From assembly GCA_964016885.1 (NCBI GenBank), contig OZ024758.1, positions 37,138,001 through 37,202,000 of the forward strand: a stretch of 64,000 bases of DNA, read 5' to 3'. Both the position numbers and the translations under genes were made by a program. Source of the DNA: Eledone cirrhosa (taxonomy: Eukaryota). The notes under the pieces are model-generated. The model was not told the origin of the DNA. It searched no databases and saw only the letters and a list, made by a program, of their open reading frames with translations. This document shows positions 27,990-29,302 of the stretch, one piece after another. Each line of letters opens with the position of its first letter. Position 1 is the stretch's first letter.

Positions 27990-28316
27990 GTGGGTACTTC
28001 TGTCTTTATCAGAAAGTCTGTGTGAAGATATATAGCTTAGAGGTTACAGGTGTGCTGTTCTCAATCATAAGGTCTTGGGTTGAACATCTGGTGCCATATT
28101 TTATTGTTCTATATAATTGTGTGTGTGTGTGTATATATATATATATGTATATACATATATATATATATATACATACATGCACACACATATATATGCACGT
28201 ATCGGTTTACTGAACATTTATTATAATGTCCGGTTTGTTTGTTTGTAAACAGCCCGAATTACGCCGTACAATGTTTAGGCAACCACGTCACCTTTTTGTT
28301 CAACACTGACACAGGA

Positions 28317-28359
28317 ACAATGTACTCATTTCAAGCTTATTAGCTATCGTCAGCACCGT
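28317..28359 (-). ncRNA. Minimal type I hammerhead ribozyme (inverted copy)
   Basis: ACGGUG-CUGACGA-UAGCU-AAUA-AGCUU-GAA-AUGAGU-A-CAUUGU; 6-bp stem I with G-U pairs, GUA triplet. Confidence 0.65.
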
Positions 28360-28877
28360 ATACCTTCCTGCTAGATGGTTGAACATCTGAAAGTATATAC
28401 TTTCCTTATGCATATTAATGGCTGAGCAGCCTAATTTGCATATTGAGTGAGTTCAGTCGGCCGGGCACACCAAAAACGATAAATGGAATAGAATGAAACG
28501 AAGGTGACGTGGTTGCCTAAACACTGTACGGCGTAATTCGGGCTGTTTGTTTGTTTACAAACAAATAAACCGAACATTATAATAAATGTTCGGTAAACCG
28601 ATACGTGCATATATATATGTGTGCATGTATGTATATATATACATACTACTGTACGTCTGTATACATATATGTATGTACGTATACATACATACTTACATTT
28701 AAGTAAGTGCCTTACTAAGAGTGAGAAATGAAATTTCGTTTCATTCTATTCCATTTATCGTTTTCGGTGTGCCCAGCCGACTGATCTCACTCGATATGCA
28801 AATTAGGCTGCTCAGCCGTTAATATGCATAAGGAAAGTATATACTTTCAGACGTTCAACCATCTGGCAGGAAGGTAT

Positions 28878-28920
28878 ACAATGCTGACGATAGCTAATAA
28901 GCTTGAAACTAGTACATCAT
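28878..28920 (+). ncRNA. Minimal type I hammerhead ribozyme
   Basis: ACAAUG-CUGACGA-UAGCU-AAUA-AGCUU-GAA-ACUAGU-A-CAUCAU; palindromic stem III ACUAGU, GUA triplet. Confidence 0.72.
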
Positions 28921-29302
28921 TCCTGTGTCAGTGTTGAACAAAAAGGTGACGTGGTTGCCTAAACACTGTACGGCGTAATTCGGGCTGTTTGTTTGTTTAC
29001 AAACAGACAAACCGAGCATTATAATAAATGTTTGGTAAACTGATACGTACATATATATATGTGTGCATGTATGTATATATATACATACGACTATACGTCT
29101 GTATACATATATGTATGTATGTATACATACATACATACTTGCATATATATATATATATATATATATATATATATATATATATATATATATATATATATAT
29201 ATATATATATATATATATATATATATATATATATATATATATATATATATATATATATATATATATATATATATATATATATATATATATATATATATAT
29301 AG

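What the first reader, a model, noticed from the sequence alone, without database searches (positions are those of the whole stretch)
28150..29142. Inverted-plus-tandem non-coding repeat carrying paired minimal hammerhead ribozymes inside the receptor intron
Seen: two copies of CUGACGA-stem II (AGCU/AGCU)-GAA-stem III-GUA lie on opposite strands (28317-28359 minus, 28878-28920 plus). Stem I differs (ACGGUG/CAUUGU vs ACAAUG/CAUCAU) but the core-proximal pairs hold, and the plus copy has the palindromic ACUAGU stem III. No coding sequence is present. Known: minimal type I hammerheads with palindromic stem III occur in Penelope-like pseudo-LTRs and retrozymes and cleave as dimers. Inference: a non-autonomous ribozyme-bearing retroelement targeting (TA)n. 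With 519-585, ~13575 and 26804, at least four unrelated hammerhead-bearing families occupy this gene. The sense copy could in principle cut the pre-mRNA after exon 10.
Basis: partly seen in the sequence, partly recalled or inferred. Interest (0 to 1): 0.72.

Follow-up and report, generated by a model that had tools for sequence, protein, structure and literature searches.

The report
Decayed Penelope-inserted hammerhead retrozyme copy
This is one worn copy of an abundant 442-base non-coding repeat with a self-cutting-RNA motif; the family's insertion ends suggest that Penelope-type jumping-gene enzymes spread it, and this copy is predicted not to cut the gene it sits in.

Summary
Both hammerhead cores are present at the stated places. 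The element is a two-armed insertion of a 442-nt non-coding unit in (TA)n. The unit has 1,874 exact-flank copies genome-wide, and related families add about 19,000. The ribozyme is a canonical type I hammerhead (6-bp helix I, palindromic helix III), not a minimal one. Across families the core is invariant and stems covary. Within the family the core decays like its flanks (p=0.15). Both window copies are damaged: helix I in the sense copy, the palindrome in the antisense copy. In a pre-mRNA the two arms are predicted to pair and bury the sense ribozyme. The window's gene copy looks like one of 34 near-identical fragments, and no downstream EGF exon was found. Family-wide, 26 of 27 classifiable two-armed insertions end at two fixed sites 62 nt apart, one per arm: the Penelope "tail" signature. 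No partner element and no RNA run was found. Verdict: a new member of the metazoan non-LTR retrozymes. The scan has noted such two-armed families elsewhere in this genome.

The parts
28150..28502 (-). Left (antisense) arm: about one unit. Its outer end is eroded by about 60 nt in this copy and reaches fixed end E1 in 11 of 24 paralogous copies.
28317..28359 (-). Antisense hammerhead. Helix I has two G.U wobbles; the helix III palindrome is lost (AUGAGU).
28501..29140 (+). Right (sense) arm: about 1.44 units with a 442-nt period, 5'-truncated, ending at fixed end E1.
28695..28756 (+). 62-nt 'tail' between the family's two fixed ends E1 and E2, internal in this insertion. It contains a hairpin whose sequence is partly kept in the distant family.
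28796..28803 (+). ATGCAAAT block kept in three families (69 of 84 matches, some from tandem units). Role open: hairpin arm or promoter motif.
28878..28920 (+). Sense hammerhead with predicted cut after 28914. G>A changes at both helix I CpGs (28880, 28919) break 2 of 6 pairs; the palindrome ACUAGU is intact.
28113..28149 (.). (TG)n(TA)n target remnant, left
29143..29301 (.). (TA)n target, right
27852..27989 (+). Host EGF-like exon, the last one found in this gene copy

Best explanation
This is an old, decayed insertion of a 442-nt non-coding tandem unit with a canonical type I hammerhead motif (a non-LTR retrozyme), likely copied into a (TA)n tract by a Penelope-like reverse transcriptase/endonuclease acting in trans, and predicted to be catalytically inert here. 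Shown: copy number, tandem period, head-to-head arms, two fixed 3' ends 62 nt apart with one per arm, variable 5' ends that run past the cut site, covarying stems between families, and damage to both local ribozymes. Inferred: intact family members are transcribed as multimers, self-cleave as dimers through the ACUAGU palindrome, and give monomers that may circularise; a PLE protein nicks both strands of AT-rich DNA and primes cDNA from each nick at two internal start sites on the RNA, producing two opposed arms. The template was longer than one cut unit, so it was a circle or an uncleaved multimer; these two are not separated here. The insertion was later multiplied passively with its host segment.
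For: Copy number: 1,874 exact-flank matches, control 0; 8,245 and 11,016 for sister and distant families, with tandem periods of about 420-470 nt. Structure: on 10 natural variants 94.6% of cells pair, 7 of 13 pairs change on both sides, and slid controls pair 23-45%. Assembled contigs laid at 85% list 40 common differences (3 more not shown); none is at the 12 conserved core positions, and the only one in the core loop is the free position 7. Ends: of 74 loci, 37 are head-to-head (26 E1/E2, 1 E1/E1, 0 E2/E2, 10 with an unclassified end), 1 is complex, and 36 are single-armed (16 E2, 14 E1, 6 other). This matches the PLE tail and the two RT start sites described in PMC8557442 and PMC11167929. 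60 of 115 arms exceed one period, and 1 of 115 starts within 5 nt of the cut. Sense-strand A>G is 81/6379 vs T>C 51/6128 (p=0.018), while G>A vs C>T is symmetric, which fits an edited RNA intermediate. Natural monomers fold as circles at z -4.5 to -7.7 (4 monomers, 30 shuffles each). PLEs with open frames exist in the genome (861 aa; 1,217 aa). Local decay: helix I probability is about 0 in both window copies vs 0.45-0.97 in intact family copies. In the sense transcript each of 8 sampled ribozyme bases pairs with the opposite arm, and the mean long-range pairing over all 43 is 0.86.
Against: No autonomous partner sharing sequence with the unit was found in 21 loci around PLE hits or 40 loci of a second PLE family; the tail search showed only retrozyme copies. 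This insertion itself is E1/E1, the rare class. Within the family the core is not significantly better conserved than the flanks (18/950 vs 498/18252, p=0.15); the p=0.004 of the smaller sample did not hold. The A>G test is one of six comparisons with no correction, and A>T vs T>A leans the other way (p=0.07). Covariation rests on about four families, so on few events; 88 of 500 shuffles reach the pair-type count. TA-rich palindromes may inflate the circular folding scores. Samples were chosen on intact ribozyme flanks, which favours long arms. PMC11167929 found hammerhead cleavage dispensable for PLE insertion in vitro, and the 2026 preprint found 8 of 9 Xenopus retrozyme dimers uncleaved. 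No cleavage or expression was observed here.
Confidence: 0.8

Rival explanations
1. The unit is the pseudo-LTR of an autonomous Penelope-like element, and the copies are 5'-truncated remnants rather than a separate non-autonomous RNA.
For: PLE insertions have the same anatomy and most are truncated (PMC8557442, PMC4209133). Xenopus retrozymes resemble pLTRs (preprint 10.64898/2026.07.22.740005). At the C22 paralog the left arm abuts a PLE coding piece.
Against: Upstream of a unit lies another unit: 60 of 115 arms exceed one period, and arrays run to tens of units. The two PLE families inspected have different terminal repeats. The C22 PLE is far younger (0.45% from its siblings) than the arm beside it (3.4%), so it came later.
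Confidence: 0.1
2. The sense ribozyme cuts the host pre-mRNA after this exon and so regulates or truncates the EGF-repeat gene.
For: The core and palindrome are intact and on the gene's strand. The same state is kept in all 24 paralogous copies examined.
Against: Two helix I pairs are broken; the catalytic fold is +7.4 kcal/mol vs -1.7 for the family state; the motif is predicted to sit in a 256-bp arm-arm duplex; and its only in-cis ribozyme partner is antisense. The 24 copies are near-identical recent duplicates, so identity is no sign of selection. Seven of 10 further paralogs lack the sense ribozyme in the fetched stretch with it deleted or replaced, an eighth has it deleted too, and these include the C22 copy that has downstream exons.
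Confidence: 0.04
3. A satellite-like DNA unit spreads by DNA recombination or rolling-circle DNA amplification, and the hammerhead is a passenger from a distant ancestor.
For: Long tandem and higher-order arrays exist (C1 near 70.06 Mb). There is no within-family core constraint.
Against: Fixed 3' ends joined to (TA)n, variable 5' ends, E1/E2 pairing, strand-biased A>G and covariation between families.
Confidence: 0.06

Closest known systems
Metazoan non-LTR retrozymes (Cervera and de la Pena 2020, PMC7229834; parts 2-3 of 6 and passages read)
   Same: Non-coding tandem units under 45% GC with a canonical type I hammerhead; thousands of copies; mollusc example of 350-390 bp; highly self-paired predicted circle; U.U at the base of helix II as in axolotl HHR_Amex2.
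   Different: The unit is 442 nt. Insertions are head-to-head arms with two fixed ends in (TA)n, not described in the parts read. Circular RNA and cleavage were not tested here.
PLE pseudo-LTR minimal hammerheads (Cervera and de la Pena 2014, PMC4209133; parts 1-2 of 4 read)
   Same: Type I topology, palindromic helix III, dimer model, opposite-strand pairs 100-700 bp apart.
   Different: min-HHRs have a 7-8-bp helix II, a 4-5-bp helix I and an unpaired base before helix II. This family has a 6-bp helix I with a distal extension and a 4-position helix II with a hexaloop. No flanked ORF.
EN+ Penelope-like element insertions (Craig et al. 2021, PMC8557442, passages; Frangieh et al. 2024, PMC11167929, passages and half of the main text)
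   Same: 5' truncation, partial tandem, inverted 5'-truncated copy, a tail at only one end, AT-rich or (TA)n targets.
   Different: No RT or GIY-YIG coding; the tail is 62 nt rather than 30-40.
Vertebrate retrozymes as PLE derivatives (Li, Clavereau, Pollet 2026, 10.64898/2026.07.22.740005; parts 1-3 of 5 read, supplements not seen)
   Same: Proposes the same partnership.
   Different: Their evidence is co-occurrence and pLTR homology in Xenopus. Here the evidence is insertion anatomy, and no pLTR homologue was found.

Membership tests
Type I hammerhead (canonical) | Conserved core CUGANGA / GAAA / UH | tested here: met
   Both window copies and all 10 variants
Type I hammerhead (canonical) | Helix I 6 bp, helix II about 4 bp, short helix III with palindromic loop | tested here: met
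   Met for the family state. Broken in the window copies: helix I in the sense copy, the palindrome in the antisense copy.
Type I hammerhead (canonical) | Covariation of stems | tested here: met
   7 of 13 pairs change on both sides across about 4 families; few independent events
Type I hammerhead (canonical) | Loop 1 / loop 2 tertiary contact | tested here: inconclusive
   A U follows helix I and an A ends loop 2 in all 10 variants, in register with the HH9 model. The contact itself is recalled from the literature and was not modelled.
Type I hammerhead (canonical) | Self-cleavage | not testable with these tools
   Needs in vitro transcription
PLE minimal hammerhead (min-HHR) | Long helix II (7-8 bp), short helix I (4-5 bp), unpaired base before helix II | tested here: not met
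Non-LTR retrozyme | Non-coding tandem units of a few hundred bp, one type I hammerhead each, low GC, no LTR/PBS/PPT layout | tested here: met
   Periods 420-470 nt, GC 0.36-0.38. PBS and PPT were not searched as motifs.
Non-LTR retrozyme | Two consecutive intact ribozymes in the same orientation ('active' in the 2026 preprint) | tested here: not met
   Not in this insertion (one per strand). Present at other loci of the family.
Non-LTR retrozyme | Expressed as linear and circular monomer RNA | not testable with these tools
   No RNA holder listed
Autonomous EN+ PLE | ORF with RT and GIY-YIG | tested here: not met
   No such ORF in the element, and none continuous with it among 85 family loci, where 5 loci held separate PLE fragments
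PLE-mobilised element | Fixed 3' ends with a tail at one end, inverted 5'-truncated arm, AT-rich target | tested here: met
   26 of 27 classifiable two-armed loci are E1/E2. This insertion is E1/E1.
PLE-mobilised element | Identified autonomous partner sharing the terminal sequence | tested here: inconclusive
   None found in two PLE families and flanks of hits. Most PLE families of the genome were not examined.

The most novel reading that the evidence does not exclude
A lineage of about 21,000 retrozyme copies records in its insertions that two Penelope reverse transcriptases, primed at the two nicks of one (TA)n break, start at two different fixed sites on one edited circular ribozyme RNA and run round it past the cut site. 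This would be genomic evidence for the proposed circle-plus-PLE route, and it names exact priming sites (E1, E2) for an in vitro test.
Probability: 0.4. Interest if true: 0.62.

Novelty: new member of a known kind. Interest (0 to 1): 0.36.

Why it matters
The locus itself is an inert passenger. The family matters moderately. How animal retrozymes are mobilised is proposed but not shown in the papers read (PMC7229834; the 2026 preprint). Here the near-strict one-end-per-arm rule and the 62-nt tail give defined RT start sites to test with the genome's own young PLE proteins, using the assay of PMC11167929. Searches for hammerhead+Penelope+octopus, retrozyme+octopus and hammerhead+ribozyme+cephalopod+retrotransposon returned no description of this family. 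The giant squid genome paper only counts 235 Rfam hammerhead hits. The library lacks most subscription papers, and Repbase and Dfam were not available.

Tried and rejected
(1) Expression: no RNA holder listed. The four runs laid were contigs of unknown kind; they were used only for variant positions. (2) snRNA-type promoter, recalled from newt satellite 2 (paper not found): 11 U1/U2 upstream regions share a TCAGT-like element near -57 and show only scattered octamer matches within one mismatch, at no common position. A TCAGTG in the unit is not kept in the distant family. Not supported. (3) The C22 PLE as a same-event partner: rejected on age. Retrozymes lie in 5 of 40 loci of that PLE; the two junctions read beyond C22 have a short TA-rich tract between the elements, as a shared target would give. 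(4) Cut linear monomer as template: 2 of 30 loci with a non-A base before the cut are truncated exactly there, and 1 of 115 arms starts near it; no enrichment seen. (5) Circle vs multimer from shared rare variants: 41 in 7,248 nt for tandem pairs and 14 in 6,719 nt for opposite arms, vs 0.46/kb for random pairs. This is above background but dominated by a few loci and by later decay, so inconclusive. (6) Empty pre-insertion site and TSD: all 10 further paralogs carry the left arm. None found. (7) Pfam did not recognise the 861-aa PLE; it was read from motifs, and the clade label 'Neptune-like' is recalled. (8) The first pattern search used a wrong gap length, and the first end-calling script was too noisy (replaced). 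(9) The first core-vs-flank test did not replicate. Rows dropped before counts: L039 and L063 as duplicates; L046 as the reference; segments under 88% identity and 20 polymorphic columns.

Full report
Setting. The window is G000:C19:37138001-37202000 of a 3.0-Gb animal genome. It is probably a cephalopod; this is my inference from content and from the wording of earlier notes, and was not tested.

1. Observation. Of 20 shuffled windows, 2 gave one hit each, against 3 hits in the real window. The region holds a 256-nt inverted repeat (95%) and a 196-nt direct repeat with a 442-nt period. The alignment resolves it into a left arm on the minus strand (about one unit) and a right arm on the plus strand (about 1.44 units), head to head at 28501/28502, between (TA)n tracts. 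Rfam does not list the window copies as hammerheads. An intact family copy aligns weakly but in register to Hammerhead_HH9 (E 0.035).

2. Family. A pattern fixing only the ribozyme's flanks finds 921+953 places, control 0. Patterns for variant cores find 8,245 and 11,016 more, with a small overlap possible, in units of about 420-470 nt that are often tandem. The family state is helix I ACGAUG/CAUCGU with a distal extension, helix II with a U.U base and a hexaloop, and helix III ACUAGU. By the definitions in PMC4209133 this is canonical, not minimal, and the U.U base recalls axolotl HHR_Amex2. On 10 natural variants 94.6% of cells pair and 7 of 13 pairs change on both sides; slid controls pair 23-45%. 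These are few independent events. The most distant family is about 65% identical over the unit yet keeps the core and palindrome. Of 40 listed common differences in laid contigs, none hits the 12 core positions. Inside the family the core is not significantly better kept than the flanks (18/950 vs 498/18252, p=0.15; 33 of 95 copies fully in the majority state), as neutral decay after insertion predicts. An earlier p=0.004 on 28 loci did not hold.

3. This copy is damaged. Against the family majority the sense copy has 8 changes in 355 nt, including G>A at both helix I CpGs. The antisense copy has 13 in 307 nt, including loss of the palindrome. Helix I probability is about 0 in both, against 0.45-0.97 in intact copies of three families. 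The palindrome self-pairs at -4.8 kcal/mol vs +2.4 for the antisense variant. In a sense transcript carrying both arms, all 8 sampled ribozyme bases pair with the opposite arm and the mean long-range pairing over 43 bases is 0.86. These are secondary-structure predictions without tertiary contacts.

4. Host. The upstream exon is EGF-like (weak Pfam hits below cut-off). Exon plus intron start occurs at 34 places at 97% identity or more, and the top 24 of 40 hits of the element are the same insertion in such duplicates. In the window no EGF exon follows within 36 kb plus 120 kb. A paralog on C22 continues with further EGF exons, so the position is intronic there, and the window copy looks like a fragment. 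Window and C22 flanks differ by 3.5% and both carry a left arm at the same site, so the insertion likely predates the duplications. At C22 the sense arm is absent, and a young 5'-truncated PLE follows the left arm. Of 10 further paralogs, only 2 keep a sense ribozyme.

5. How it spreads. Arms have variable 5' ends and two fixed 3' ends, E1 and E2, 62 nt apart, each joined mostly to (TA)n. Of 74 loci, 37 are head-to-head: 26 E1/E2, 1 E1/E1, 0 E2/E2 and 10 with an unclassified end. One is complex and 36 are single-armed (16 E2, 14 E1, 6 other). With even odds per arm, 26 or more of 27 has a probability of about 2e-7 (hand calculation). PLE insertions show the same anatomy with a tail at one end (PMC8557442), and for an anole PLE the tail is the stretch between two internal RT start sites, with both strands nicked and extended (PMC11167929). 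The window's insertion is the rare E1/E1 type; loss of a tail in the long TA tract is possible but not shown. 60 of 115 arms exceed one period, and there is no excess of arms starting at the cut, so the template was a circle or an uncleaved multimer. A>G exceeds T>C on the RNA strand (81/6379 vs 51/6128, p=0.018 uncorrected; other pairs not significant), a modest sign of an edited RNA. Four natural monomers fold as compact circles (z -4.5 to -7.7).

6. Partner. The genome holds PLEs with open frames: an 861-aa frame and a very young 1,217-aa family (92 scored hits at 98-100%). Neither shares terminal sequence with the unit in what I compared. The C22 juxtaposition is two events by age: PLE 0.45% from its siblings, arm 3.4% from a family copy. 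The partner stays unknown.

7. Comparison and verdict. It works like, and on the testable features belongs to, the metazoan non-LTR retrozymes (PMC7229834). It is not a min-HHR and not an autonomous PLE. The PLE partnership is already proposed (PMC7229834; preprint; preprint supplements not seen). No paper on this family turned up. This scan has noted related two-armed families on other DNA of this genome; look-ups by sequence and near this place returned nothing. The locus is an ordinary decayed copy. The family's end-pairing rule is a useful, testable trace of mechanism. Novelty: new member of a known kind. Interest 0.36.

Noticed in passing
L245:1250-3830 (G000 C22, paralog of this intron): In one (TA)n tract an intact-ribozyme antisense retrozyme arm (about 1.3 units) is joined head-to-head, through a 95-nt inverted piece of coding sequence, to a young 5'-truncated PLE. 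The longer left arm could be the window's middle segment flipped between the inverted arms.
   Followed up: partly
L285:1769-5419 and 92 hits: Very young PLE family with a 1,217-codon open frame, an Asn-rich insert, C-terminal GIY-YIG and a min-type hammerhead motif in its terminal repeat; a candidate active element for in vitro work.
   Followed up: partly
L077:2514-5097: 861-aa open PLE frame (Neptune-like, label recalled) with no Pfam hit; its terminal repeat has a hammerhead-like motif with C in place of G8.
   Followed up: no
window 2304-27989; 34 copies on C16, C18, C19, C20, C22, C26, C27: A multi-EGF gene segment is recently multiplied; the window copy lacks the C22 downstream exons, its first exon is triplicated (-3037, 2304, 8422), and one Cys is changed to Tyr in the exon at 12159.
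   Followed up: partly
window 519-585 (-), about 13575 (-), 26804 (+): Three further hammerhead-type repeats. The first is intact and recurs near PLE hits; the second has lost G12; the third resembles the min-type motif of the 1,217-aa PLE in layout.
   Followed up: partly
window 30180-30520: Small two-armed inverted remnant similar to the 3' end of the 1,217-aa PLE family, around a (TA)n tract.
   Followed up: no
window 30650-33620, 34900-39350, 46000-64000: A broken LINE with an endonuclease-RT frame, a Helitron-like element with a PIF1 helicase, and an 18-kb short-period satellite follow the element; tRNA-like SINE heads lie at 29303 and 29634.
   Followed up: no
L131-L152 (U1 and U2 genes): U1 and U2 arrays share a TCAGT/TCAAT element at about -57, a likely proximal sequence element for this genome.
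   Followed up: no
L083 (C1 near 70.06 Mb) and C3 near 12.27-12.32 Mb: Long arrays of the unit in which the core is mutated (C3>A in a higher-order repeat; G at the cleavage position), suggesting DNA-level amplification of dead units.
   Followed up: no
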